The position numbers and the translations under genes are program-made. The notes beneath the pieces were generated by a model, which saw only the letters and a list, made by a program, of their open reading frames with translations, was not told the origin of the DNA and made no database searches. From assembly GCA_046050355.1 (NCBI GenBank), contig JBJOPW010000002.1, forward strand, positions 43,853-107,852: a DNA stretch of 64,000 nt, read 5' to 3'. Positions 513 to 43,061 of this stretch are shown here, piece after piece. The stretch comes from Candidatus Parcubacteria bacterium. GTDB lineage: Bacteria > Patescibacteriota > Minisyncoccia > Phycocordibacterales > UBA918. The first letter of the stretch is position 1. Each line of letters opens with the position of its first letter.

Positions 513-521
513 CAGCAGTAT

Positions 522-587
522 AACGAAAGACCATCCATGCGCACATGGGTGGTCTTTCGTTATAGCAAGCAATTAGTATTGCTTGCG
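522..587. terminator. Two consecutive hairpins downstream of the tRNA: a 12-bp stem at 522-561 and a 9-bp stem at 566-587.
   Basis: AACGAAAGACCA...TGGTCTTTCGTT and GCAAGCAAT..ATTGCTTGC inverted repeats. Confidence 0.45.
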
Positions 588-603
588 GACTGCTGTGCTG
601 ACC

Positions 604-710
604 GGAGCGATGTTTTCTGCTTGGCTAAAGCAGAAAACCGCGAGGTGGGGTCGAGAACACTTAGTAGATTGGGAACGAAGTGAACCAATATACTTAGTGA
701 TTCGTGACCA
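604..710 (+). repeat. Copy A of a ~108-nt tRNA-associated repeat element.
   Basis: Variable 5' hairpin (GTTTTCTGCTT..AAGCAGAAAAC) followed by a conserved ~75-nt core. The core contains the hairpin AGTAGATTGG[GAACGAAGTGAA]CCAATATACT. About 90% identical to copies at 5437-5545 (minus) and 15505-15612 (plus). Confidence 0.65.
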
Positions 711-793
711 CAAACGGTACGAAAAAGCGCACCCTTATGGGTGCCTTTTTCGTTCGTGCTTTCACAGCAAAGCCTCTCGAGGCTTTGCGTCAG

Positions 794-864
794 GAATCGA
801 AGCCCGATTGAGAGTAGATTATGAGCTTGTGAAATAATCTAGCCACGAGCGTGATCGATTCCTG
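794..864 (+). repeat. Distal part of the composite element at the first tRNA locus: inverted T-arm copy, conserved-loop-type hairpin, partial direct repeat of the tRNA 3' region.
   Basis: GGAATCGAAGCC (794-805) is the reverse complement of the tRNA T-arm region. Hairpin TAGATTA[tGAGCTTGTGAAAt]TAATCTA at 815-841. TCGATTCCTG (855-864) matches the tRNA T-arm/acceptor junction. Confidence 0.4.
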
Positions 865-965
865 TTGACTTTGAGGCGCATAGTATACTTCCCGTGTTAC
901 AATCGACATGTTACAAAATAAAGTATTGTATGATTAAAACCATATCATTAGAACGGTTCATTATT

Positions 966-4261: not shown

Positions 4262-4767
4262 CCAAAAAGACTGTCACCACCCTTGGCATTGCTACCCTCT
4301 ACTTTGCGGTAGTATTGTCCGTGTTGATCTACGCGTATGTGTCAGTCCATTCACAAAAGGCTGATGCCCTGGCTTTAGCAACGACACTGGCTGAGCAGAC
4401 GAGCAAACAATCAATTGCTCGTTCTCTAGCTGCTACCTTTGATGCAACGATCGATGTACGCACTGAGATTGCCTCTTATTTTCTTGAGGAAAAAGAAACA
4501 ATCACCTTCATTGCTGAAATCGAGGCGTTAGCTCAGGCCCTAGGTGTCAGTATTGAACCGACGGCACTGGATTTTGTTACAACCGAATCAGGAAGGCGAG
4601 AGCTCAAAACCGGTTTCGCGGTTAAAGGTACTCGTACGGCCGTCTTACAATTCATGAAGGCAATTGAAACAATCCCGTACCATAGTCGGATTGCATCGCT
4701 GCAGGTGGTGGGGAATGATAATGAATGGAGCGGGCAGGTTGATCTTTTTGTTACAATAAAACCATGA
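4258..4767 (+). CDS. pilO: PilO-like type IV pilus assembly protein.
   Basis: Single N-terminal TM and about 140-aa periplasmic domain. Translationally coupled to pilN and the downstream ORF. Confidence 0.45.
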   Translation: MTKKTVTTLGIATLYFAVVLSVLIYAYVSVHSQKADALALATTLAEQTSKQSIARSLAATFDATIDVRTEIASYFLEEKETITFIAEIEALAQALGVSIEPTALDFVTTESGRRELKTGFAVKGTRTAVLQFMKAIETIPYHSRIASLQVVGNDNEWSGQVDLFVTIKP

Positions 4768-5222
4768 TAGACCAAGCAAAATTACAAACAATCATCACCC
4801 GCCTCGTACGGTCATCCTCGGTTGTTGAGCGACCAGCGATGAGTCCGGCTCGTGAATGGTTCACCGGTATCCTCATTACAATTTGTTTTGTATGTGTTGG
4901 TGGAGTAGTGAGTTATTGGTTATATCTTAATACCGTATCGGTAGAAGCGGAGGTGCAGGATAGTATAACCGCTACTTCATACAAAGGCGCCTTAGTCGAA
5001 GAGGCGGTTATGCGTTTTCGTGCCCGGGGCGCTGCTTACGAGCAGATTCGCGCCCGACAAAACGATCTGCAGCCAGTTGAGGCAATGGCGCCGGTGCCAC
5101 CAGTAACGACTGAGTCACCAATTACTGAGGTTCCTGCGGACCTTACGCCAGAACCACAGATACCAACGGTGGAGCCTGCAGAAGAAGCGACAGAGGAGTC
5201 TGCACCAACGTTGAGTTTTTAG
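4764..5222 (+). CDS. Membrane-anchored protein with a Pro/Glu/Thr-rich C-terminus (possible pilus-associated PilP-like component).
   Basis: Coupled to pilO by a 4-nt overlap. One TM. Low-complexity acidic C-terminal tail. Confidence 0.35.
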   Translation: MIDQAKLQTIITRLVRSSSVVERPAMSPAREWFTGILITICFVCVGGVVSYWLYLNTVSVEAEVQDSITATSYKGALVEEAVMRFRARGAAYEQIRARQNDLQPVEAMAPVPPVTTESPITEVPADLTPEPQIPTVEPAEEATEESAPTLSF

Positions 5223-5276
5223 TCGAAGTCACCGCACTAAACCACATCACTGTTGTGATGTGGTTTAGTGAATTTA

Positions 5277-5420
5277 CTCTGCCCCGGCTTGGAATCGTCC
5301 TGACGGTCACCAAGCTAGATTGTTTCGCTTTTGCTCACAATCTAGCAGGTGCCGCGGGACACGGCTCGCTGGCCCTAAAGGGGACCCCAGCTCCGCCGTT
5401 CGATTCCAAGCCGTGCCTAC
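5277..5420 (-). repeat. Structured tRNA-Arg 3'-end-derived segment: inverted and direct copies of the tRNA 3' end closing a multi-hairpin region that includes a conserved-loop hairpin.
   Basis: 5277-5297 is a 21/21 direct repeat of 5631-5651 (tRNA-Arg 3' end plus 4-nt trailer). 5399-5410 is its inverted complement (12-bp closing stem). Internal hairpin CTAGATTGT[GAGCAAAAGCGAA]ACAATCTAG. Confidence 0.5.
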
Positions 5421-5436
5421 AAATGTTAAATAATTT

Positions 5437-5545
5437 GGTCACGAATCACTAAGTATATTGATTCACTCCGTTCTCAATCTACTAAATGTTCGCGACCCCG
5501 TCTCGCGGTTTTCTGCTTTGGTCAAGCAGAAAACATCGCTGCGAC
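5437..5545 (-). repeat. Copy B of the ~108-nt tRNA-associated repeat element.
   Basis: Reverse complement aligns to copy A, including the GTTTTCTGCTT..AAGCAGAAAAC hairpin and the core ending GATTCGTGACCA. Core hairpin AGTAGATTGA[GAACGGAGTGAA]TCAATATACT. Confidence 0.65.
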
Positions 5546-5587
5546 TCAGAGAGAAGTCGAAAGCAATATTAATTGCTTTCTAAACCA

Positions 5588-5626
5588 AACAAAAGCGCTC
5601 GTTTTGAGCGCTTTTGTTTGGTTTTC
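5588..5626. terminator. Strong hairpin (14-bp stem) immediately downstream of tRNA-Arg(TCT).
   Basis: AAACAAAAGCGCTC-GTTTT-GAGCGCTTTTGTTT with flanking T/A runs. Confidence 0.55.
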
Positions 5627-5633
5627 TTCTCTC

Positions 5634-5705
5634 TGCCCCGGCTTGGAATCGAACCAAGAATAACGGCTTAGAAGTCCGCAGTTATATCCATTTAACTACC
5701 GGGAC
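5634..5705 (-). tRNA. tRNA-Arg (anticodon TCT).
   Basis: Reverse complement folds as a cloverleaf. Acceptor GTCCCGG/CCGGGGC, D-stem GTTA/TAAC with GG in the loop, anticodon loop CTTCTAA, T-arm CTTGG-TTCGATT-CCAAG. No CCA encoded. Confidence 0.8.
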
Positions 5706-5799
5706 GCACCCCATCTAACGATGAGGTGAAGACAGCATAGCAAAAAAATGGTGAGCCGGAAACTTCGTGAATCGCGCAGTGTTTTGTATACTACAAATT

Positions 5800-6537
5800 A
5801 TGCAAGACCGACCGACTATCCTTTTGGTGCAATTCAGACAAACTCCTGCCGCTGATCTCCTCGAACGCCAGAGTGTTGAACGTGAAGTTTCTCTCTTTGC
5901 GACGGTAAAAACTATATGTGGGGTTACCGGCAATGTACTCGAAGCGATACAGGGTGCTGATGGTGTGATACTCGGCGGTTCGGGAGACTATGATTTTGAT
6001 GGAGCGAGATCGCCCGATGATCCAGTACGGGCACGTACCGAAAATCTGTTTCGGTCACTTAGTCCAACGCTCGATTACTTATTTACTATCGATAAGCCAC
6101 TTCTTGGGATTTGTTTTGGACACCAGCTCATGGGTGCCTTTCGGGGTGCCAATGTCTATCACGACACTAACCAGAGCAAATTAAAGACGCATACCGTGAC
6201 GCTCCACGATGAAGGACGGAACCACCGCCTGTTTGCAAATATGCCAGTAACTTTTGATGCACAGTATGGACACAAGGATGTGCTCGCACATATTCCGACG
6301 GGTGCGACTTTGCTTGCGCATGGTGGTGAATCCTGTCGGGTGTCAGCGCTCGCGTATAGTGACAATATTATCTCGACACAATTCCATCCCGAATTATCGC
6401 TCGCTGATATGTATGACCGGGTGGCACATATTCCGCACTATTTACCAGAAGGTACAACCGTTGATGACGTGTTTTTTGATACGCCACACGCGCGGACGAT
6501 TTTGCATAATTTTGCGAAGGTGGTGGTAGCGGGGTAG
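5800..6537 (+). CDS. Class I glutamine amidotransferase-like protein.
   Basis: GICFGHQLM (catalytic Cys elbow) and TQFHPE motifs of the GATase1 family. Start trimmed to the ATG at 5800. Confidence 0.7.
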   Translation: MQDRPTILLVQFRQTPAADLLERQSVEREVSLFATVKTICGVTGNVLEAIQGADGVILGGSGDYDFDGARSPDDPVRARTENLFRSLSPTLDYLFTIDKPLLGICFGHQLMGAFRGANVYHDTNQSKLKTHTVTLHDEGRNHRLFANMPVTFDAQYGHKDVLAHIPTGATLLAHGGESCRVSALAYSDNIISTQFHPELSLADMYDRVAHIPHYLPEGTTVDDVFFDTPHARTILHNFAKVVVAG

Positions 6538-10434: not shown

Positions 10435-11100
10435 ATGAAAATACTCGAAAAGAAGAGGGCTATAGAGTTGCGTGAGCGGGGGATAGCTTTAGGTGAAATC
10501 GCTAAAAAATTAAACGTAGCAAAAGCTACAGTCAGTTATTGGGTACGGGATATTTCATTATCGAAGACACAGATCAAGCAACTCAGAGCGAATAGTCACT
10601 CAAGAGAAGCAATTGAAAAGCGACGATTGTCACGTATGACTGCAGCCGAAAAAATCCGAGATAGTATACGAGAAGAAGCTCGACAACAAGCAGTACAGTT
10701 AATCAAAAATCCATTATGGTGTGTTGCAATAGCCTTATATTGGGGGGAGGGTGGAAAGACGCAACGAACGGTTCGAATCGCAAATAGCGACCCCTCAGTT
10801 ATTAGACTACTTTGCCACTTCTTTAGAAATGAATGTCATGTGCCACTTTCTAAAATGCGAGCACATGTTCATGCGTTTTCGCACAGCGATATTGAATCAA
10901 TAGAGAAGTACTGGTCAAAAATTAGTGGCATACCCAGAAATCAATTTTTTAAGGCATATATTAAACAAAGTAGCTCTAGTAAAGAAAAAAGACAAACACT
11001 TCCAAATGGTACAATGCAAATATATGTACATGATAGTAGTTTGTTTATTAAAATTATAGCTTGGATAGAATATCTGAAAGAGATAAAACATTATGATTGA
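10435..11100 (+). CDS. HTH-domain protein with a possible LAGLIDADG-like motif (candidate free-standing homing endonuclease).
   Basis: N-terminal resolvase/sigma-70 region-4-like HTH (RGIALGEIAKKLNVAKATVSYWVRD). Central AIALYWGEGGK resembles LAGLI(E/D)GDG. AT-rich. Sits between tRNA-Val and acyP. Confidence 0.4.
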   Translation: MKILEKKRAIELRERGIALGEIAKKLNVAKATVSYWVRDISLSKTQIKQLRANSHSREAIEKRRLSRMTAAEKIRDSIREEARQQAVQLIKNPLWCVAIALYWGEGGKTQRTVRIANSDPSVIRLLCHFFRNECHVPLSKMRAHVHAFSHSDIESIEKYWSKISGIPRNQFFKAYIKQSSSSKEKRQTLPNGTMQIYVHDSSLFIKIIAWIEYLKEIKHYD

Positions 11101-15151: not shown

Positions 15152-15236
15152 TGCCCAGGTGGCGAAATTGGTAGACGCACTACCTTGAGGTGGTAGCGCC
15201 TTCACGGGCATGCTGGTTCAAATCCAGTCTTGGGCA
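15152..15236 (+). tRNA. tRNA-Leu (anticodon GAG), long variable arm.
   Basis: GCCCAGG acceptor, GG in the D-loop, anticodon arm CTACC-TTGAGGT-GGTAG, variable arm CGCCTTCACGGGCAT, T-arm CTGG-TTCAAAT-CCAG. No CCA encoded. Confidence 0.85.
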
Positions 15237-15670
15237 CAAATAGCCGACCGAAACATGAATATGTTTCGGTCGTTGCTATTTGTAGACCAAGACTGGATTT
15301 GAAAGACAGTTTCGGGGTTCCCTTAGGGCCGAAACTGTCCGGGTCGGGCGAATGAGTTATATTGTGAGCAAAGCGAAATAATATAACCATGAGTGTGACC
15401 AAATCCAGTCTTGGGCACAAAGTCGTAAAACAAAAACAATTCTCCAAAAGAGAATTGTTTTTGTTTTAGAAAGCCAATGACTTGGCTTTCGACGACTTTG
15501 TGAAGCGGAGCGTTGTGAGTCGCCCCAGAAAGGCGACGAACCGCGAGCTGGGGTCGAGAACACTTAGTAGATTGAGAACGGAGTGAATCAATATACTTAG
15601 TGATTCGTGACCAGGACAAGCAAACAGGATTAAATAAAAAGCTTAGTAACTCATGACTTAATCCAGTCTT
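15237..15670 (+). mobile_element. Composite non-coding element(s) downstream of tRNA-Leu, bounded by direct repeats of the tRNA 3' end.
   Basis: Hairpin 15245-15276. Inverted copy of the tRNA 3' end at 15284-15302. Hairpin 15305-15338. Conserved-loop hairpin GTTATATTGT[GAGCAAAGCGAA]ATAATATAAC at 15355-15386. A 22-nt exact direct repeat of the tRNA 3' end at 15399-15420. Hairpin 15425-15468. Repeat copy C. A second partial repeat AATCCAGTCTT at 15659-15669. Confidence 0.5.
15505..15612 (+). repeat. Copy C of the ~108-nt tRNA-associated repeat element.
   Basis: Conserved core CCGCGAGCTGGGGTCGAGAACACTTAGTAGATTGAGAACGGAGTGAATCAATATACTTAGTGATTCGTGACCA. Its 5' hairpin differs from copies A and B (GTCGCC..GGCGAC). 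Confidence 0.65.
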
Positions 15671-18935: not shown

Positions 18936-19010
18936 AGATCGGTGCGTGACCTACGCAGCAAGGGAACATTCCGTGCCAGCTTACAATATAAACAAATCTC
19001 GTCAATGGAG

Positions 19011-19222
19011 AGGCGGCTACCGGAAGGAATTGGTCACAGGTTACTAAGCTTTTTATTTCGCTTTGCTCATAAAAATCTAAGTACCCGCGACCCCGCCTCG
19101 GCCGTTTTATTTCTAGAAAGAAATAAAACATGCCTGCGACTTTCAATTCCCGGACGCAAGTGATACTAATCACTTGCTTAGCCGCCCCAATATAAAAGAC
19201 CCCAAAAAGGGGTCCTTTATAT
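19011..19222 (-). mobile_element. Composite non-coding element downstream of tRNA-His, bounded by a direct repeat of the tRNA 3' end.
   Basis: Partial direct repeat GGCGGCTACCGG.A..GGAATTGG at 19013-19034. Conserved-loop hairpin (minus sense ATTTTTAT[GAGCAAAGCGAA]ATAAAAA) at 19049-19077. Palindromic hairpins 19106-19129 and 19157-19178. Inverted copy of the tRNA 3' end (TAGCCGCCCCAATAT) at 19179-19195. Terminator hairpin 19196-19218. Confidence 0.5.
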
Positions 19223-19298
19223 TGGGGCGGCTACCGGGAATTGAACCCGAATTGAGAGTTCCACAAACTCCAGTAATAACCATTATACCATAGCCGCC
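19223..19298 (-). tRNA. tRNA-His (anticodon GTG) with encoded G-1 and CCA.
   Basis: Reverse complement GGCGGCTA...anticodon arm GGAGT-TTGTGGA-ACTCT, T-arm TCGGG-TTCAATT-CCCGG, 3' end TAGCCGCC-C-CCA. The extra 5' G pairing with C73 is His-specific. Confidence 0.85.
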
Positions 19299-21244: not shown

Positions 21245-21733
21245 TTAAATGGAATACTCTCAGTAAGGAGTATTGCCACTATAACGGTATAAAACGTACA
21301 AATCGAGTGTCCAACCGGTCACTCGATTTGTTTGTCTCTCTCGCCAAAGTCATAAAACAGTTCTGCAATACGGACTGTCCACTAGTTATCCACATTTAGG
21401 GAGTGACCTAAACTAATCGAGCTATATTTTTCAAGCTTTTCTTCGAAAAGACTCGTCTTTTTACAAGACACCAAAACCACACTATGATAGAGATACCGCA
21501 CGAGTTCTCCAATCGTGCGTGTCGGGGTAATAGACACGCCACGGGCACGCCAATTTTTATGACGTGAACATTGGCCAGCATGTTCTGGTGTGTCTTTATT
21601 TCCCTCAGGTTCTTTACTAAACCCAATCGACTCATTGTATTGTAGTTAGCCGCTCACAAGAAGAGAGTACCACCACAGATTGTGTTTGGATGAGAATAAT
21701 TTATTACCGCTGTCGCCTAACTGTTGTTGTGAT

Positions 21734-23047
21734 ATGGAAATTAAGCAGATAAAAAAGCGTGATGGTTCAATTAAGCCATTTGATATTGGCAAGATCGAGC
21801 ACGCCATCCTCATGGCTCTCTCGGAGACTAATGCTGGGGGGGTGGAGGATGCCAAAAAAGTCGCGACATTGGTTCACCAAAAAGTAGTATCAATGTGTGT
21901 GCAGGCTGGTACGGCTGAAAATGGAGACCCAAAAGCTCAGAAGTGTATCGATGGCTACCCAACGGTAGAAGAGATCCAAGACCTGGTCGAAGCGTCTCTG
22001 ATGGAGCTCAATTACTTTGATACCGCTAAGGCGTACATCATTTATCGCAATGAACGCAAGAAGATGCGCGAGCGCGATATCTTCCGCAAGCGTCAGAACT
22101 TGAAACCCTACGAGTACCCTGAGCTTTACGAGTATGTCGATGCCATTCGTCACTCCTACTGGGTACATACCGAATTTAACTTCACCGGCGATGTGCAGCA
22201 TTTCCATGTGAATGTGAATGATGCCGAGCGTAATGCCATCAAGAACACCATGCTCGCCATCGCGCAGATTGAAGTAGCGGTGAAGAGTTTCTGGGGGGAC
22301 ATCTACAAAAAGATGCCAAAGCCAGAAATTGGGGCAGTGGGATCGACGTTTGCTGAGTCAGAGATTCGTCACACTGATGCCTACTCACACCTGCTTGAAA
22401 TCCTTGGGCTCAACAACGAGTTTGCAAAGATTAAAGATATTCCGGTGATTCAGCAGCGGATGGACTACCTTGATAAGGTGGCAGAACTCTCGCGCACCCA
22501 GGAGAATCGCGAGTACGCCCATGCCATCATGCTCTTCTCGCTCTTTATTGAGCACGTGTCACTGTTCTCACAGTTCCTTATTATGATGTCGTTTAACAAG
22601 CACAAGAACTTGTTTAAGGGTATCAGTAATGCGGTTGAGGCGACGAGTAAAGAAGAAAACCTGCATGGTCTCTTCGGTATTGACGTCATTAACATTATCA
22701 AAGAAGAGCATCCAGAGTGGTTTGATAAGGCCATGCAGGAAGCTATCCTCAAGGCCTGTGAAGAAGCCTATGAAGCTGAAAGCCGTGTGGTGGACTGGAT
22801 CTTCGAAGCTGGAGAATTGGACTTTTTGCCGTCACAGAACGTCAAGGAGTTTATCAAGAATCGTCTCAATAACTCGCTTGCAGCGATTGGCATGCCTCGG
22901 CACTTTGAGGTGAGTGAGGCCCTCCTTGAAGAAACTGATTGGTTTGACAATGAAGTGATTGCCACGAAGCATGTCGACTTCTTTGATAAGCGTTCAATCA
23001 ATTACAACAAACGCGCCGCCAGTGTTACCAGTGAAGATTTATTCTAG
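21734..23047 (+). CDS. nrdB: Ribonucleotide reductase small (radical-generating) subunit NrdB with an N-terminal ATP-cone domain.
   Basis: MEIKQIKKRDGSIKPFDIGKIEHAIL is an ATP-cone, followed by a ferritin-like R2 core with E..H iron-ligand pairs. Start at the ATG at 21734. Confidence 0.8.
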   Translation: MEIKQIKKRDGSIKPFDIGKIEHAILMALSETNAGGVEDAKKVATLVHQKVVSMCVQAGTAENGDPKAQKCIDGYPTVEEIQDLVEASLMELNYFDTAKAYIIYRNERKKMRERDIFRKRQNLKPYEYPELYEYVDAIRHSYWVHTEFNFTGDVQHFHVNVNDAERNAIKNTMLAIAQIEVAVKSFWGDIYKKMPKPEIGAVGSTFAESEIRHTDAYSHLLEILGLNNEFAKIKDIPVIQQRMDYLDKVAELSRTQENREYAHAIMLFSLFIEHVSLFSQFLIMMSFNKHKNLFKGISNAVEATSKEENLHGLFGIDVINIIKEEHPEWFDKAMQEAILKACEEAYEAESRVVDWIFEAGELDFLPSQNVKEFIKNRLNNSLAAIGMPRHFEVSEALLEETDWFDNEVIATKHVDFFDKRSINYNKRAASVTSEDLF

Positions 23048-27851: not shown

Positions 27852-27859
27852 CAAGAAAC

Positions 27860-28265
27860 GCGGATGGTTGCGAATTCGAGTTGTGTAATTACCATCTCGA
27901 GTTTGAGGAAAGTCCGGACACAGCGTCAATAGAAATATTGTCGAGACAGGTAGTGGGTAATACCCATCCTGAGCAATCAGCGAGGTGCGAGCAGAGACGC
28001 CCGCGGCGAAAGCCAACGGCTACCCACCAGGGTAGAGCTTGTATGGCAACATACAAGGTGAAACGGCTAAATCCTTACCCCTGTGCAAGGCCGTGCCGAG
28101 CACGTAGTCTGGATACATAATCTCTATGATTACATTTCAGACTACGTGCTTGGAGAGCTGCAAGAGGTGATCAGTAATGATCATCCCAGGTATATAACCA
28201 TCTCGAGCCAATGGCTCGAACAGAATCCGGCTTACAGCGTATCAAACACTCCCTTAGGGGAGTTT
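27860..28265 (+). ncRNA. rnpB: RNase P RNA (bacterial type).
   Basis: P4 5' strand GAGGAAAGTCCGGAC at 27905-27919 and P4 3' strand ACAGAATCCGGCTTA at 28220-28234 match the universally conserved RNase P RNA motifs. Ends with terminator hairpin CTCCCTTAGGGGAG plus T5 at 28247-28268. All six-frame ORFs inside are judged spurious. Confidence 0.8.
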
Positions 28266-30654: not shown

Positions 30655-30751
30655 AATACTATTATGACATGTTCAAAGGCGGCTGTCTTTTGGTGGTCTT
30701 TGTTGCGTAATGGTACACTTATGGTCACTAATCACTAAGAACTACAAACTT

Positions 30752-39455: not shown

Positions 39456-42400
39456 ATGTCAAAAATGCATGGTCGTGAAAACGACACCGTAGCGGTTGAA
39501 ACTGCTACACAAAAGAGTGACGTTGCCCTGCGCGAAGAGACTATCCTTGCGTTCTGGCAAGAGCACGATATTTTTAATAAAACCCTAGCGACACCGGCGG
39601 GGGACGCACCAATTGGTGACTATATCTTTTATGATGGTCCACCGTTTGCGACCGGGACACCACACTACGGCCATATCTTAGCAAGTACCATCAAGGACGC
39701 CGTCCCACGCTTTTGGACGATGCGTGGCTACCATGTTCCCCGCAAGTGGGGGTGGGACTGTCATGGGTTGCCGCTCGAGAACCTTATCGAAAAGAAGCTC
39801 GGACTTGCGACCAAGCGTGACATCGAAGACTATGGGGTCAAGAACTTCAATGAAGCCGCACGCGGTACCGTCATGGAGTACGCTGACTACTGGAAGATGG
39901 CCATTCCGCGTATGGGACGCTGGGCTGACATGGAGAACGACTACAAAACCATGGACAGTACCTACACCGAAAGTGTGTGGTGGGTATTCTCTGAACTGTA
40001 CAAAAAAGGTCTTGCGTTTGAGGGTTTCAAGACCATGCATCTCTGTCCACGCTGTGGCACGACCCTGTCTAACTTCGAAGTGAATCAGGGGTACAAAGAT
40101 ATCAAAGACATCGCCGTGACGGTGAAGCTACCACTGCTCGATGACGCCGGGCAGGTGACTGACACCGCACTCCTCGTGTGGACGACGACACCATGGACCC
40201 TCCCAGGGAACTTGGCTGCCGCTATCAATCGCGAGTTTGATTATGTGAAAGTGAAGGTTCTTCCCAAGGTTGATATAGGGCAGCTAAACGGTGAGTATGT
40301 TTCAAAGTCTGAAGAATATGTTGTTTTAGCAAAAGGAATACTAGAAAAATGCTATGCAGAAAAAATGTCCATTCAGACTTTCTATGCTTTTGGCGATCAT
40401 TGGCTTGTGCCAGTTGAAACATTTTCTGGCGACACTCTTATCGGACGCTCGTACCAACCACCATTTCCGTTTATGGCAGGACAGAGTTTTGACCAGACTA
40501 ACGCCTGGAAGATTTGGCATGCCGACTACGTCGAACTCGGTGAGGAGGGAACCGGCGCCGTCCATATCGCGCCTGCCTACGGTGAAGACGACATGCAGCT
40601 CGCTAAGGCCAATAATGTCCCAATTGTCCACCATGTCGATGAGAGTGGTCGGTTCAAAGACTGGGTGACCGGCTTTAACTGCGCCTTAGTAAAGCCAAAA
40701 GATGACGATACGTCTGGCGTTGATCACAAAGATACTGATATTGAAATCTTGAAGTTCCTCCAGGCCGCTGGCAAGATTTTCAAAAAGGAGAATATCACAC
40801 ACAGTTACCCACACTGTTGGCGCTGCGATACACCGCTCCTCAACTACGCGACTACCTCATGGTTCGTAAATGTACCAAAGATCAAAGACGAACTCGTCGC
40901 CGTGAACAACGGTGTCCACTGGGTCCCAGAACATGTTGGTACAAATCGTTTTGGTAAGTGGCTCGAGGGGGCGCGTGACTGGGCTATCTCTCGCCAGCGT
41001 TACTGGGGTGCGCCACTGCCAATTTGGAAGAATCCAACCACTGGTGAAGTGAAAGTGATAGGCTCGCTTAAAGACCTACAAACGTATGTGCGAAAGAGTG
41101 GTAACACCTATACCATCACCCGCCATGCTGAGGCGGAGAGTAATCTCTCTGGGGTTATTGATGCGATTAAGGATGAAGCCAATCATTTGACTGAAACTGG
41201 CAAAGCGCAAGCTAAAGCGACCGCCGAAACATTACGTGTCAAAGGAATCACCCGGATTGTGCATTCGGGTATGACCCGAGCTCGTGAGACAGCGGAATTA
41301 ATTGCCAATGAACTAGGGCTGTCTCAGGCTGTGGTCGTTGCCGATGAACGGTTGCAGGAATTTAAAGTAGGGACTGCTTGGGAGGGTAAGACTTGGGCTG
41401 AGTTTAACTCTCAGTTCGCAACCGAAGAAGAAAAATTTGAGAAGACTTTTGCCGGTGGCGAGAGTCGCTTTGATTTGATCAAACGAGTAGGACAGTGGCT
41501 TTATGAATATGACGCCTCGAACCAAAACGAGCACACACTTGTGATTGGGCACGGTAGCTCACTTTTTGCACTACAAACAGTAGCCCGAGGAGCTGATTAT
41601 GATGAGATGATTACCCTCAAAAAAACTGGGTATCTCAAAAATGCCGAGGTGCGAGATCTGCCCTTTATCCCTATACCCCACAATGACCTCTACCAGCTCG
41701 ACTACCATCGACCATACATCGATGAGATTGAGCTCTACGACACCGATGGTGCGAAGCTTGAGCGCATCAAGGATGTCTTTGATTGTTGGTTCGAGTCGGG
41801 TTCGATGCCATATGCCCAGCATCACTACCTGGGTGAGAACCCAGAGGAGTTTGCCCCGAAGTGTTTCCCAGCCCAGTTTATTGCCGAAGGACTCGATCAG
41901 ACTCGCGGCTGGTTCTACTCACTCATTGTACTCGGTACTGCACTCTTCGGCCGTTCGCCGTATGAGCATGTGATTGTAAATGGTCTCGCCTTGGCTGAAG
42001 ACGGCAAGAAGATGTCAAAGAGTCTCCGCAACTATCCTGATCCGATGGAGCTTGTTGACCGAGTGGGGGCAGACGCTATTCGTTACTACATGATGTCTGC
42101 GCCAATCATTCGGGGTGAAGACCTGAACTTCAGTGAAAAGGAAGTAACTGAACAACAGCGCAAAAATATCGGTCGTTTGCACAATGTACTCGCCATGTAC
42201 GACATGTATGCCGATGGTACTACTGCAAATGCCGCCTCTGCCAACACACTCGATCGTTGGATTGTCTCACGCCTCAATCAGCTGATAGCTGAAGTAACTG
42301 TAGGGTACGAGAGCTACGAGCTCGATAAGGCCACTCGACCAATCGCCGATTTCATTGATGATGTTTCTGTCTGGTATCTACGCCGTTCTCGCGAACGATT

Positions 42401-43061
42401 GAAGAGTGATGATGTGGCAGATAAAGCACTGGCTCTCGGCACCCTCCGCTATATCTTGCGAGAGCTTGCAAAGGTAATGGCACCTGCCATGCCGTTCTAT
42501 GCTGAGTACCTCTACCGTGCAGTCCGAGAGGAGAGTGAGGCAGAAAGTGTCCACCTCACCAAGTGGCCAGAATGTGCAATTGTGGACGAAAGTAGTATTG
42601 ATCTTATGAAGCAAGTACGTGAAGTCGTGACTGCCGCACTTGAAGCGCGCATTAAGTCTGGTATCAAAGTGCGTCAGCCGATTGCCAGTGTCACTGGTCC
42701 AGAGTTGCCAGCCGAGTATCAATCAATTGTGCTTGATGAGCTCAATGCCAAAGCGTATCAAGTAGGGGAAATCATCTCAATTGACACTACCCTCACCCCT
42801 GAACTCATCGCCGAAGGAGCGGTCCGTGAAGTGATGCGCGCCATCCAAGATATGAGAAAGCAGACCGACCTCACCCCTAATGATATTGTCAGTCTCATTA
42901 TTGAGACCGATGCGGCCGGGCAAACGGCGCTTGAAACCCCAGCACTCAAAGCCCTCCTCATGAAGACGGTTAATGCCAAGAGTATTACCTACGCTAGTAC
43001 ATCAGGAACTGAAGTCATTGCTGGCGAGTATCGCTTTGTGGTGAATGTAGTGAATGAGTAG
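39456..43061 (+). CDS. ileS: Isoleucyl-tRNA synthetase with an inserted ~200-aa histidine-phosphatase (PGAM-like) domain.
   Basis: PHYGHILAS (HIGH), WTTTPWTLPGN (editing CP1), HCWRCDTP, WAISRQRYWGAPLP, DCWFESGS, KMSKS. Between the last two core blocks there is a segment with RHAEAE...GHGSS, which are histidine-phosphatase motifs. Confidence 0.9.
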   Translation: MSKMHGRENDTVAVETATQKSDVALREETILAFWQEHDIFNKTLATPAGDAPIGDYIFYDGPPFATGTPHYGHILASTIKDAVPRFWTMRGYHVPRKWGWDCHGLPLENLIEKKLGLATKRDIEDYGVKNFNEAARGTVMEYADYWKMAIPRMGRWADMENDYKTMDSTYTESVWWVFSELYKKGLAFEGFKTMHLCPRCGTTLSNFEVNQGYKDIKDIAVTVKLPLLDDAGQVTDTALLVWTTTPWTLPGNLAAAINREFDYVKVKVLPKVDIGQLNGEYVSKSEEYVVLAKGILEKCYAEKMSIQTFYAFGDHWLVPVETFSGDTLIGRSYQPPFPFMAGQSFDQTNAWKIWHADYVELGEEGTGAVHIAPAYGEDDMQLAKANNVPIVHHVDESGRFKDWVTGFNCALVKPKDDDTSGVDHKDTDIEILKFLQAAGKIFKKENITHSYPHCWRCDTPLLNYATTSWFVNVPKIKDELVAVNNGVHWVPEHVGTNRFGKWLEGARDWAISRQRYWGAPLPIWKNPTTGEVKVIGSLKDLQTYVRKSGNTYTITRHAEAESNLSGVIDAIKDEANHLTETGKAQAKATAETLRVKGITRIVHSGMTRARETAELIANELGLSQAVVVADERLQEFKVGTAWEGKTWAEFNSQFATEEEKFEKTFAGGESRFDLIKRVGQWLYEYDASNQNEHTLVIGHGSSLFALQTVARGADYDEMITLKKTGYLKNAEVRDLPFIPIPHNDLYQLDYHRPYIDEIELYDTDGAKLERIKDVFDCWFESGSMPYAQHHYLGENPEEFAPKCFPAQFIAEGLDQTRGWFYSLIVLGTALFGRSPYEHVIVNGLALAEDGKKMSKSLRNYPDPMELVDRVGADAIRYYMMSAPIIRGEDLNFSEKEVTEQQRKNIGRLHNVLAMYDMYADGTTANAASANTLDRWIVSRLNQLIAEVTVGYESYELDKATRPIADFIDDVSVWYLRRSRERLKSDDVADKALALGTLRYILRELAKVMAPAMPFYAEYLYRAVREESEAESVHLTKWPECAIVDESSIDLMKQVREVVTAALEARIKSGIKVRQPIASVTGPELPAEYQSIVLDELNAKAYQVGEIISIDTTLTPELIAEGAVREVMRAIQDMRKQTDLTPNDIVSLIIETDAAGQTALETPALKALLMKTVNAKSITYASTSGTEVIAGEYRFVVNVVNE

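What the first reader, a model, noticed from the sequence alone, without database searches (positions are those of the whole stretch)
5277..5633. tRNA-Arg(TCT) locus: a 357-bp insert bounded by an exact 21-nt repeat of the tRNA 3' end, with a 12-bp closing stem
CTCTGCCCCGGCTTGGAATCG at 5277-5297 is identical to 5631-5651, which is the tRNA 3' end plus a 4-nt trailer. Inside the insert, GGCTTGGAATCG (reverse strand, 5399-5410) can pair with the repeat to close a ~145-nt multi-hairpin domain that includes the conserved-loop hairpin. Repeat copy B and a 14-bp terminator hairpin lie between this domain and the tRNA. The six-frame ORF 5255-5452 that covers the region is implausible as a protein.
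Basis: seen in the sequence. Interest (0 to 1): 0.7.

Follow-up and report, generated by a model that had tools for sequence, protein, structure and literature searches.

The report
Tandem structured elements behind tRNA-Arg
The 357-bp "insert" behind this tRNA-Arg gene is two tandem copies of an uncatalogued ~200-nt non-coding, RNA-like structured element that sits behind tRNA genes across candidate-phyla-radiation bacteria, carries an inverted and a direct copy of the tRNA's own 3' end, and comes and goes between related genomes like a tiny mobile element.

Summary
The repeat is real. 5277-5297 equals 5631-5651 exactly, and an inverted copy lies at 5398-5413. It is not one insert. It is two tandem units of one family that I call E. 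Unit X is 5438-5633 and unit Y is 5277-5437, both on the minus strand. The 21-nt repeat belongs to Y only.

The same family follows tRNA-Arg(gcg), tRNA-Leu and tRNA-His in this window. A pattern scan found at least 119 more stretches in other genomes, nearly all labelled Patescibacteria/CPR. These lie behind tRNAs with 33 different anticodons, behind tmRNA, and at the 3' ends of ftsZ, rplK-like and rpsI-like genes.

Each unit has a terminator-like hairpin, a segment complementary to the host gene's 3' end, and a conserved two-domain core ending in GTGAC. Often a displaced copy of that 3' end follows. The core shows strong covariation (94% paired, 30 of 32 pairs compensatory) and a near-invariant G·U pair on the tRNA-sense strand. 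No Rfam family matches. No partner protein recurs nearby.

Orthologous loci show X present or absent exactly after discriminator A73. There are also tandem arrays, truncated copies and a solo copy.

Best reading (confidence 0.55): a new non-autonomous, structure-dependent selfish element that targets gene 3' ends. The insertion mechanism is unknown.

The parts
5634..5705 (-). tRNA-Arg(tct), no encoded CCA. The acceptor 3' strand is CCGGGGC and the discriminator A is at 5634. It carries the upstream copy of the repeated 3' segment (S_up, 5634-5651).
   Evidence: ARAGORN; Rfam tRNA, 56.6 bits.
5438..5633 (-). Unit X, the '3'-end mode' member of family E. It is a discrete ~196-nt unit inserted directly after A73. 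It starts GAGAGAAG and ends GTGAC. C5437 could belong to either side.
   Evidence: Empty versus filled orthologous sites. Empty: GGGGCA|CAAAT in L003, L125, L126. Filled: GGGGCA|GAG...GTGAC|CAAAT in the window, L004, L124, L127.
5547..5635 (-). Three-way junction at the 5' end of X. P1 pairs 5626-5635 (C72, A73 and an 8-nt trailer) with 5547-5556. P2 is a perfect 19-bp terminator-like hairpin at 5582-5624. P3 is a conserved hairpin at 5558-5581 (AGAAAGCAATTAATATTGCTTTCG).
   Evidence: (I12, I1). P1 covaries between orthologues: GAGAGAAG/CTTCTCTC in the window and GAGTGAGG/CCTCACTC in L004.
5437..5546 (-). Conserved core of X. It has two domains. P4/P5 runs from 5546 to about 5500. P6 is a long irregular hairpin at 5437-5499, from GGGGTCG to GTGACC, with the apical loop motif GAGAACGGAGTGAA.
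   Evidence: Model R1 scores 116.1 bits. Covariation. The copies at 600-709 and 15503-15612 are 91-95% identical.
5414..5437 (-). Shrunken remnant of unit Y's own leading hairpin (CAAAT-TATTTAA-CATTTG, then TAGGCA). In L003, L125 and L126 this is a full hairpin that directly follows the tRNA.
   Evidence: Comparison of orthologous loci.
5398..5413 (-). IC, the inverted copy. CGGCTTGGAATCGAAC on the minus strand is complementary to T-loop, T-stem 3' strand and the first 3 nt of the acceptor 3' strand.
   Evidence: I3: 16 nt with the tRNA; I5: 13 nt with DC. In the Leu locus the IC is the true complement of the 3' strand (CCAAG), not a copy of the tRNA 5' strand (CCAGG).
5298..5397 (-). Core of unit Y, a divergent subfamily. 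It ends GGTGACCGTCAGGA.
   Evidence: Model R1 hit at 5305-5398, E = 3.8e-5 in the window alone. 94% identical to L003 9643-9791. The Y core at 15304-15400 scores 37.7 bits.
5277..5297 (-). DC, the displaced direct copy of the tRNA 3' end (C56 to A73 plus GAG). It pairs with IC to close Y's three-way junction.
   Evidence: D1, I5. In other genomes the DC begins exactly at the C after GTGAC in 37 loci.
5235..5270 (+). 16-bp hairpin. It is the terminator of the upstream plus-strand gene 4764-5222. It is a neighbour, not part of the element.
   Evidence: (I2).
514..880 (+). Sister locus behind tRNA-Arg(gcg) (441-513). It has unit X (core 600-709), then a hairpin, then a degenerate Y-like unit (about 795-870) with a short IC and DC.
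15237..15670 (+). Sister locus behind tRNA-Leu(gag) (15153-15236). The order is the opposite of the Arg(tct) locus. Hairpin, IC (15291-15306) and Y core (15304-15400) come first. Then a 21-nt DC (15401-15421), then X (core 15503-15612), then a remnant with a decayed DC.
19005..19222 (-). Sister locus behind tRNA-His (19223-19297). This is the cleanest 'T-loop mode' unit. In order: trailer hairpin, anti-acceptor GGGGCGGCTA, P3, anti-T CCGGGAATTGAA, core (19032-19141), then GTGAC followed by DC AATTCCTTCCGGTAGCCGCC.

Best explanation
The finding is two tandem members of a previously uncatalogued family of small (~180-220 nt), non-coding, strand-specifically structured selfish elements. I call the family E. 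They colonise the 3' ends of highly conserved genes in Patescibacteria: mainly tRNA genes, also tmRNA, ftsZ, and L11-like and S9-like ribosomal protein genes. They always lie in the sense orientation.

Shown:
- A unit consists of a long terminator-like hairpin P2, often a conserved hairpin P3, a segment IC complementary to the host gene's last nucleotides, and a conserved two-domain core ending in GTGAC.
- There are two insertion modes. In 'T-loop mode' (unit Y here, and the tRNA-His unit) the host 3' segment from T-loop C56 onward occurs twice. One copy is an intact upstream copy that completes the gene. The other is a displaced downstream copy (DC) that decays.
- In '3'-end mode' (unit X here) the unit sits exactly after discriminator A73, has its own covarying P1 helix and makes no repeat.
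- In this locus Y came first and carries the 21-nt repeat. X inserted later between the tRNA and Y.

Inferred:
- The conserved fold is the active form. It is RNA made by read-through from the host gene, or the sense-strand ssDNA.
- The IC·3'-end helix is what ties a unit to its site.
- Insertion uses machinery encoded elsewhere, and the host gene survives because its 3' end is kept or regenerated.

The enzymology is not known. Candidates are site-specific strand exchange on a folded intermediate, copy-choice or template switching, and an RNA intermediate.
For: Same family in both halves: model R1 hits 5437-5546 (116 bits) and 5305-5398 (30 bits), plus four more sites in the window.

Distribution:
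Nearly all carry Patescibacteria/CPR labels. One record is named Patiriisocius sp. and several are just 'bacterium'.
- Of 140 pattern matches, 105 have a same-strand tRNA ending 67-516 nt upstream, covering 33 anticodons.
- Units also follow tmRNA (L085, L025) and lie at the ends of protein genes (L017, L018, L048, L055, L038).

Structure:
- 94.3% of cells are paired, against 71.7% in shuffles.
- 30 of 32 pairs show double changes.
- The covariation score is 0.522, against 0.162 in shuffles and at most 0.074 with slid partners.
- One G·U pair is present in 141 of 148 sequences, which fixes the strand.

Site-matched segments:
- IC of at least 8 nt against the tRNA body in 66/105 loci (3.7% in shuffles). 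DC of at least 8 nt in 52/105 (0.5% in shuffles).
- IC and DC co-occur: 40 loci have both, 33 have neither, 19 have only one.
- The DC starts at the C after GTGAC in 37 loci.

The DC is a relic: in 12 of 12 loci where the two copies differ, the tRNA 5' strand pairs better with the upstream copy. Mismatch counts run from 0 to 15 of 17.

Turnover:
- X is present or absent at the identical tRNA-Arg(tct) gene with clean boundaries.
- L003 and L004 encode the identical GATase protein but have different layouts.
- Tandem arrays occur, for example L017 with a 200-nt period and L001 ArgGCG with at least 3 units.
- There are truncated and degenerate copies and P6-only fragments, and a solo copy 3 kb from tRNA-His.
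- Cores within one genome are 91-95% alike, while the orthologous X in L001 is about 70% alike.
- The window's tRNA-Val has no unit, but its orthologues do.

No ORF, no Rfam match at E up to 10, and no recurrent neighbouring protein within 2.5 kb.
Against: - No transposase, integrase or reverse transcriptase was found near any copy, or among the 33 window proteins scanned, which cover ORFs up to about 45.7 kb; ORFs beyond that were not scanned. No free or circular form has been seen, so mobility is inferred only from comparisons.
- None of eight related genomes has a completely empty tRNA-Arg(tct) site, and almost every tRNA in these syntenic regions carries a unit. That density would also fit a host function.
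- Similarity of cores within a genome could come from gene conversion rather than transposition.
- How the IC becomes matched to each new target is unexplained.
- Mismatches in the IC·tRNA helix are not clearly biased towards G·U (14 against 9 A·C-type). Selection on that helix at the RNA level is therefore not shown.
- At ftsZ the displaced copy still encodes VPAFLRRSKLK* in two genomes, and all differences between them are synonymous. That is not what simple neutral decay predicts.
- Alignment A4 was fitted to the model, and the retrieval pattern fixed parts of P6, so both lean towards the structure.
Confidence: 0.55

Rival explanations
1. E is a host-beneficial, cis-linked RNA module of the tRNA transcription unit. 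One version: a trailer-encoded small RNA released by RNase Z cleavage after A73. Another: a processing, termination or quality-control device whose IC toggles between the tRNA 3' half and the DC. The multiple similar copies would be kept alike by gene conversion.
For: - E always lies in sense orientation directly behind a transcribed gene.
- Unit X starts at the nucleotide after the discriminator, which is where RNase Z cuts CCA-less precursors (established knowledge), and its 5' end is paired in its own P1.
- Covariation is strong and a G·U pair is conserved.
- Nearly all tRNAs in the window, L001 and L003 carry a unit, and no relative has an empty Arg(tct) site.
- IC and DC co-occur, and a 7-nt DC stub that still pairs with the IC often survives when the rest has diverged.
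Against: - Content at one and the same tRNA gene differs between close relatives: X only, Y only, X-Y, Y-X remnant. Truncated and degenerate copies are tolerated.
- The window's tRNA-Val lacks a unit altogether.
- Units also sit at protein-gene ends and in a solo position.
- A strong terminator-like hairpin precedes the conserved core, so only read-through would make the RNA.
- Tandem arrays of up to three units are hard to justify functionally.
Confidence: 0.27
2. The repeat marks the two ends (attL/attR) of a conventional tyrosine-integrase genomic island in a tRNA gene that has been deleted down to 333 bp.
For: A regenerated tRNA plus a displaced 3' fragment that starts in the T-loop is the signature of tDNA islands (Islander abstract, PMC4383910). 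tmRNA is also a target.
Against: - There is no integrase gene or remnant, and the interior is two copies of a conserved structured repeat.
- The same core is linked to 33 anticodons and to protein genes. Integrases are specific for one or a few sites.
- Most units are about 200 nt in more than 100 genomes. Independent deletions would not produce that.
Confidence: 0.06
3. E is an intron-like sequence. The downstream copy (DC) is the true 3' exon, and E with the upstream copy is spliced out.
For: Removing the stretch from S_up to GTGAC keeps the ftsZ reading frame, and the DC encodes the same C-terminal peptide. Group I introns do occur in Patescibacteria tRNA genes, but at position 35/36 (bioRxiv 10.1101/2025.07.03.662931).
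Against: - At tRNA loci the DC decays and pairs worse with the tRNA 5' strand than the upstream copy in 12 of 12 cases.
- The ARAGORN and Rfam tRNA calls use the contiguous upstream copy.
- X-type units have no DC.
- No intron family matches in Rfam.
Confidence: 0.03
4. The region is translated (ORF 5255-5452), or the repeat is chance or an assembly artefact.
For: An open frame of 65 codons exists.
Against: - The ORF is antisense to a covarying structured repeat. It starts inside the neighbouring gene's terminator. It is broken in L004.
- The same architecture recurs in independent assemblies from many projects.
Confidence: 0.01

Closest known systems
Genomic islands integrated in tRNA/tmRNA genes by tyrosine integrases (Islander-type tDNA islands; cis-mobilisable elements that lack an integrase)
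   Same: The target gene is split in its 3' part. The element supplies a replacement 3' end, and the displaced fragment remains as a direct repeat that marks the far end (PMC4383910 abstract). The repeat starts in the T-loop, and tmRNA is also used.
   Different: There is no integrase and no cargo, and a unit is only about 200 nt. One core family is linked to at least 33 tRNA species and to protein genes. It has an internal inverted copy of the target and a conserved, covarying, strand-specific fold. A second mode inserts exactly after the discriminator and makes no repeat.
Bacterial miniature structured repeats (MITEs, REP/BIME, Correia elements, Rickettsia palindromic elements). From my own knowledge, not tested here.
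   Same: They are short, non-coding and multi-copy, fold strongly, lie at gene ends, vary between strains and depend on functions supplied in trans.
   Different: E has no element-specific terminal inverted repeats and no fixed-length target duplication. Its inverted repeat comes from the target. It is strictly oriented with the upstream gene. Its core evolves like a functional RNA, with compensatory changes and a conserved G·U pair.
Folded single-strand attachment sites (CTX phage attP formed from two inverted dif-like sites; integron attC). From my own knowledge.
   Same: Two inverted copies of the target sequence lie about 100 nt apart. In a single strand they can fold into a duplex that imitates the target site.
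   Different: No Xer or IntI link has been shown. The target sequences are many and unrelated apart from the T-arm. The conserved core between the arms has no counterpart.
Guide-bearing mobile-element nucleic acids (IS200/IS605 guide/cleavage-site pairing and TnpB omega RNA; IS110 bridge RNA; R2 elements whose 5' ribozyme helix pairs with 28S rRNA sequence). From my own knowledge.
   Same: A structured non-coding part of the element carries a short segment matched to the sequence at its insertion site. For R2, the element is co-transcribed with the host RNA gene.
   Different: No associated nuclease, recombinase or reverse transcriptase gene was found. The guide lies opposite the same segment that is duplicated, not opposite adjacent left and right halves. 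There are no Rfam hits. Orientation follows the gene, not replication.
RNAs released from tRNA co-transcripts by RNase Z or RNase P (tRNA-snoRNA and tRNA-miRNA units, mascRNA-type processing). From my own knowledge.
   Same: Unit X begins at the first nucleotide after the discriminator of a CCA-less tRNA gene, so normal tRNA 3' processing would free it.
   Different: Those are eukaryotic or viral cases. Here a terminator-like hairpin lies between the tRNA and the core, and the units are polymorphic and often decayed.

Membership tests
Any Rfam 15 family (including tmRNA, Y RNA-like, group I/II introns, self-cleaving ribozymes, HEARO, GOLLD/ROOL) | A match to the family covariance model at or near the gathering score | tested here: not met
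   In 5100-5800 at E up to 10, only the tRNA passes. All other hits are hairpin look-alikes well below their gathering scores. Across the whole window at gathering threshold there are only 5 tRNAs and RNase P RNA.
tRNA-integrated genomic island (tyrosine integrase) | A regenerated tRNA gene plus a displaced 3' fragment as a direct repeat | tested here: met
   21-nt exact repeat from C56 to A73 plus 3 nt. The same pattern holds in 52/105 tRNA-linked units elsewhere.
tRNA-integrated genomic island (tyrosine integrase) | An integrase gene inside the element, next to one end | tested here: not met
   Only 333 nt lie between the repeats, all occupied by two structured units. No recombinase domain was found in the 33 window proteins scanned (ORFs up to about 45.7 kb), nor among the additional locus ORFs scanned. 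No recurrent neighbour was found.
tRNA-integrated genomic island (tyrosine integrase) | One element family uses one or a few attachment sites | tested here: not met
   The same core follows tRNAs with 33 anticodons, tmRNA and protein genes.
MITE / classical transposon derivative | Element-specific terminal inverted repeats and a target-site duplication of fixed length | tested here: not met
   The inverted repeat is the complement of the local target and differs at every locus. The duplication ranges from none (X) to more than 45 nt (L017).
Self-splicing intron with the DC as 3' exon | The downstream copy is the functional exon | tested here: not met
   The upstream copy pairs better with the tRNA 5' strand in 12 of 12 informative loci, and the DC decays.
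Structured functional RNA (generic criterion) | Compensatory base changes that keep the helices, and strand-specific G·U pairs | tested here: met
   30 of 32 pairs have double changes. The covariation score is 0.522, against 0.162 in shuffles and at most 0.074 with slid partners. G·U occurs in 141/148 sequences. Caveats: the alignment was fitted to the model, and sense-strand ssDNA would give the same signal.
Mobile element (generic criterion) | Presence/absence at orthologous sites with clean boundaries, plus multiple dispersed copies | tested here: met
   X: GGGGCA|CAAAT against GGGGCA|GAG...GTGAC|CAAAT at identical tRNA genes. There are four loci in the window, tandem arrays and a solo copy.
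Mobile element (generic criterion) | An identified mobilising enzyme or a free intermediate | not testable with these tools
   Nothing lies adjacent. Whole genomes and transcriptomes of the hosts were not available. Two sequence patterns found no copy in IMG/VR viral contigs.
IS200/IS605-type single-strand transposition | Insertion orientation tied to the replication direction (lagging-strand template) | tested here: inconclusive
   Within 20 kb, units lie on both strands and always follow the tRNA's strand. That speaks against a pure replication-strand rule, but the replication direction was not determined.

The most novel reading that the evidence does not exclude
E is a new class of catalytic or guide RNA. 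It would be co-transcribed with the host gene and use its target-matched segment (IC) to act on the gene's own 3' end. One version is a self-processing ribozyme that cuts at the N|C boundary where both the upstream copy and the DC begin, giving unit-length or circular RNAs that are copied back into DNA (a bacterial 'retrozyme'). Another version is a programmable splint for strand exchange at the ends of tRNA genes. Either would be a protein-gene-free, RNA-structured mobile system specific to CPR bacteria.
Probability: 0.25. Interest if true: 0.92.

Novelty: categorically new. Interest (0 to 1): 0.8.

Why it matters
CPR (Patescibacteria) bacteria have tiny, streamlined genomes. Even so, in these syntenic regions almost every tRNA gene carries about 200-400 nt of this element.

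If E is a selfish element, it would be the smallest known system that keeps an essential gene intact while inserting into it, and it carries no gene of its own. That makes it a good case for asking how a structured nucleic acid can specify its own integration site.

If E is a host RNA, it is a widespread unknown step in tRNA gene expression in a major, uncultivated part of the bacterial tree.

In practice, the units create false ORFs, partial-tRNA repeats that look like the ends of genomic islands, and rearrangement hot spots that matter for annotating and binning CPR genomes. A covariance model such as R1 could annotate them.

Tried and rejected
- tmRNA or a permuted tmRNA: ARAGORN finds none and Rfam has no match.
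- Known ribozymes, Y RNA-like RNAs, and GOLLD, ROOL or HEARO: no Rfam match at E up to 10.
- Phage origin: two patterns gave no hit in IMG/VR viral contigs.
- Partner protein: clustering all ORFs within 2.5 kb of units in about 120 loci gave no cluster in more than 11 loci. The top clusters are housekeeping genes (PilM, MiaA, L19, LepA, RluD, CCA-adding enzyme) or spurious antisense ORFs over E itself.
- HTH-LAGLIDADG-like genes upstream of tRNAs as the engine of a composite 'HE-tRNA-E' cassette: no tRNA 5' fragment lies upstream of those genes.
- IC as a copy of the tRNA 5' strand: rejected, because at tRNA-Leu it is the exact complement of the 3' strand (CCAAG, not CCAGG).
- RNA-level selection on the IC·tRNA helix, judged from a G·U against A·C mismatch bias: inconclusive, 14 against 9.
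- Literature: five full-text searches ran; a sixth errored. None found a description of this element. The one related paper concerns group I introns at tRNA position 35/36.
- The 20-nt partial match at 30723-30742 looks like chance.
Full report
**1. The observation**

tRNA-Arg(tct) lies at 5634-5705 on the minus strand. It has no encoded CCA. Its acceptor 3' strand is CCGGGGC and its discriminator A is at 5634.

The 21-mer CTCTGCCCCGGCTTGGAATCG occurs exactly at 5277-5297 and 5631-5651. On the tRNA strand this is T-loop C56 through A73 plus three trailer bases (GAG), not four.

A third, inverted copy lies at 5398-5413. It is 16 nt complementary to the tRNA and 13 nt complementary to the downstream repeat (I3 and I5). 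The "closing stem" is therefore 13 bp around a 129-nt domain. The hairpin next to the tRNA is a perfect 19-bp stem (I1). The region folds much better than shuffles, and better on the tRNA-sense strand: -183.5 against -166.4 kcal/mol, with z = -14.2 and -11.9.

**2. The locus is not unique in the window**

A self-comparison shows 5436-5540 repeated at 606-710 (91%) and 15539-15613 (95%). Each copy lies downstream of a tRNA and on the same strand as it: Arg(gcg) at 441-513 and Leu(gag) at 15153-15236.

Reading the three loci side by side gave two modules.

- X consists of trailer, long hairpin P2, conserved hairpin P3, an anti-trailer segment, and a conserved core ending GTGACC.
- Y consists of an inverted copy of the tRNA 3' part (IC), a three-way junction, and a direct copy of the tRNA 3' end (DC).

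The order is tRNA-X-Y-DC at Arg(tct). At Leu it is tRNA-hairpin-Y-DC-X. In each locus the IC and DC match that locus's own tRNA.

**3. X and Y belong to one family**

I built a covariance model from nine X-type cores. In the window it finds four strong copies: 600-709, 5437-5546, 15503-15612 and 19032-19141, at 104-118 bits. It also finds the two Y cores, at 15304-15400 (37.7 bits) and 5305-5398 (30.3 bits, E = 3.8e-5).

The tRNA-His locus shows the complete architecture. In order it has: the tRNA; a trailer hairpin; anti-acceptor GGGGCGGCTA; P3; anti-T-arm CCGGGAATTGAA; the core; then GTGAC followed by a copy of the tRNA from the T-loop onward.

**4. Host organism and relatives**

The flanking glutamine amidotransferase gene has its best homologues in "Candidatus Pacebacteria/Paceibacterota" MAGs. 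The syntenic loci L001-L004 and L124-L127 carry the same, mostly identical, tRNA-Arg(tct) gene but different element content:

| Genome | Content behind tRNA-Arg(tct) |
|---|---|
| L001 | X only |
| L003 | Y then an X remnant |
| L125 | Y followed by a P6-only fragment |
| L126 | Y directly (contig ends inside it) |
| window | X then Y |
| L004 | X then Y |
| L124 | X then Y, with extra fragments |
| L127 | X then Y, with extra fragments |

L003 and L004 encode the identical amidotransferase protein yet differ in layout.

The comparison gives a clean empty-against-filled pair for X. The empty site reads ...CCGGGGCA|CAAAT.... The filled site reads ...CCGGGGCA|GAG...X...GTGAC|CAAAT.... So X is a discrete unit of about 196 nt (window 5633 to 5438), inserted exactly after the discriminator and without target duplication.

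Its P1 helix covaries between orthologues: GAGAGAAG/CTTCTCTC against GAGTGAGG/CCTCACTC. The 21-nt repeat travels with Y. In L003 and L125 it lies right behind the tRNA plus Y, with X absent or outside it.

**5. Distribution**

Nearly all are labelled Patescibacteria/CPR: Paceibacteria, Kaiser-, Yonath-, Nomura- and Lloydbacteria and others. One record is named Patiriisocius sp. and several are just "bacterium".

- Of 140 matches, 105 have a same-strand tRNA ending 67-516 nt upstream, mostly 80-145 nt. They cover 33 anticodons.
- Two of the rest follow tmRNA genes.
- Several sit at the 3' ends of protein genes: an L11-like gene (L017, two tandem units with a 200-nt period), ftsZ (L018, L048, L055) and an S9-like gene (L038). 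I identified these genes from their C-terminal translations, not from database hits.
- A complement of at least 8 nt to the last 22 nt of the tRNA lies between the tRNA and the core in 66/105 loci, against 3.7% in shuffles.
- A direct copy of at least 8 nt follows GTGAC in 52/105 loci, against 0.5% in shuffles.
- The two features co-occur: 40 loci have both, 33 have neither, 19 have only one.
- The direct copy begins exactly at the C after GTGAC in 37 loci, which is T-loop C56.
- Unit periods cluster at 180-220 nt.

**6. Structure**

On 148 distinct sequences aligned to the model:

- 94.3% of cells form standard pairs, against 71.7% in column shuffles and 30-44% when partners are slid.
- 30 of 32 pairs show changes on both sides.
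- The covariation score is 0.522, against 0.162 in shuffles and at most 0.074 with slid partners.
- The pair G147·U270 is G·U in 141 sequences.

That G·U pair would be C·A on the other strand. The selected fold is therefore on the tRNA-sense strand, as RNA or as sense-strand ssDNA.

Caveats: the alignment was fitted to the model, and the retrieval pattern fixed parts of P6. Even so, the nine-sequence MAFFT alignment already showed 21 of 32 compensatory pairs.

No Rfam 15 family matches the region.

**7. What the direct copy is**

Where the upstream and downstream copies of the tRNA 3' segment differ, the tRNA's 5' strand pairs better with the upstream copy. This holds in 12 of 12 informative loci. 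Mismatch counts run continuously from 0 to 15 of 17. The DC is therefore a displaced relic and not a 3' exon.

This regenerated-target-plus-displaced-fragment logic is that of tDNA islands (PMC4383910).

At ftsZ the picture is less simple. The upstream copy and the displaced copy encode the same peptide, VPAFLRRSKLK*, using different codons. Two genomes differ in the displaced copy only at synonymous sites. A third has a premature stop. This fits import of a foreign 3' end together with the element, or some continuing selection. I could not decide between the two.

**8. What it most likely is**

The following points argue for turnover of a selfish element rather than a fixed component of tRNA genes:

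- presence/absence with clean boundaries at orthologous sites;
- tandem and nested arrays;
- truncated and degenerate copies;
- a solo copy 3 kb from its tRNA;
- several core subfamilies (X, Y, and a third "Z" type at L003 His/Ser and L001 ArgGCG);
- cores that are more alike within a genome than between orthologous sites;
- occurrence at protein-gene ends.

The conserved, covarying, strand-specific core and the strict sense orientation say that the fold itself is functional. Because units lie downstream of a transcribed gene, read-through RNA is the obvious candidate for the active form.

I therefore commit to this reading: a non-autonomous, structure-dependent element that targets gene 3' ends (confidence 0.55). 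It has two insertion modes. In T-loop mode the 3' end is duplicated. In 3'-end mode the unit sits after the discriminator and makes no duplicate.

How the target-matched IC arises is inferred, not shown. The universal T-loop gives 7 bp of pairing at any tRNA. The rest could be adjusted by mutation, or by template switching around the long P2 palindrome.

The main rival (0.27) is a host-useful trailer RNA or processing module that is homogenised by gene conversion. Its high occupancy, and the fact that X starts at the RNase Z site, support it.

I consider three other readings unlikely: classical island remnants, an intron, and a coding ORF. The reasons are in the rival list.

**9. What is missing**

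- No recombinase, transposase or reverse transcriptase lies nearby.
- No copy was found in viral contigs.
- There are no expression data.
- The literature searches found no description.

The decisive experiments are end-mapped RNA-seq, in vitro processing assays, read-level allele analysis in the source metagenomes, and phylogenetic profiling with the covariance model.

Noticed in passing
window 10435-11100 (+); L065 1251-1976, L001 13561-14229, L015 2047-2742, L031 2119-2775, L059 1928-2617, L075 7169-7867, L098 53-481, L108 2581-3264: A family of ~220-240-aa proteins with an N-terminal HTH (HTH_23). One member has a LAGLIDADG_3 match. In many CPR loci the gene sits 0-50 nt upstream of a tRNA gene on the same strand. 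The window homologue (27% identity, E = 3e-20) lies 86 nt from tRNA-Val, divergently oriented. It may be a second tRNA-associated selfish gene.
   Followed up: partly
window 39456-43061 (+): A 1201-aa isoleucyl-tRNA-synthetase-like protein carries a histidine-phosphatase (His_Phos_1) domain inserted at residues 554-721.
   Followed up: no
window 21680-23047 (+): A ribonucleotide reductase small subunit has an N-terminal ATP-cone domain. That domain is usually found on the large subunit.
   Followed up: no
L001 17500-17800 (-): A 'solo' His-type unit has the inverted and direct copies of the tRNA-His 3' end but no tRNA upstream. It lies 3 kb from the real tRNA-His. Its left junction retains only CCC plus the trailer.
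   Followed up: partly
L018 6772-7050, L048 3121-3504, L055 4302-4418 (ends of ftsZ): Units are inserted at the ftsZ C-terminus. The intact and displaced copies encode the same VPAFLRRSKLK* peptide with different codons. Between two genomes the displaced copy differs only synonymously.
   Followed up: partly
L003 His and Ser loci, L001 5186-5600 (Arg-gcg array), L039: A third core subfamily ('Z') ends in ...GGGTACTG, then a hairpin with a GTAA loop, then the DC. Model R1 does not detect it. It shares the GAG...CGAA loop hairpin and the IC/DC layout.
   Followed up: no
L125 and L127 (tRNA-Arg(tct) loci), L124: P6-only fragments of a unit are fused directly to the displaced tRNA end through the shared GGGG of the acceptor (CCGGGG) and the P6 start (GGGGTCG). 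This suggests microhomology-mediated rearrangements between units.
   Followed up: no
window 27852-28250 (+): RNase P RNA, class A, scores just above the Rfam gathering score (109 against 100 bits).
   Followed up: no
window 30723-30742 (-): A 20-nt match with 3 mismatches to the 3' end of the unit (GTTCTTAGTGATTAGTGACC) lies in the intergenic region between the DHFR and CYTH-domain genes. No other unit features surround it, so it is probably chance.
   Followed up: partly
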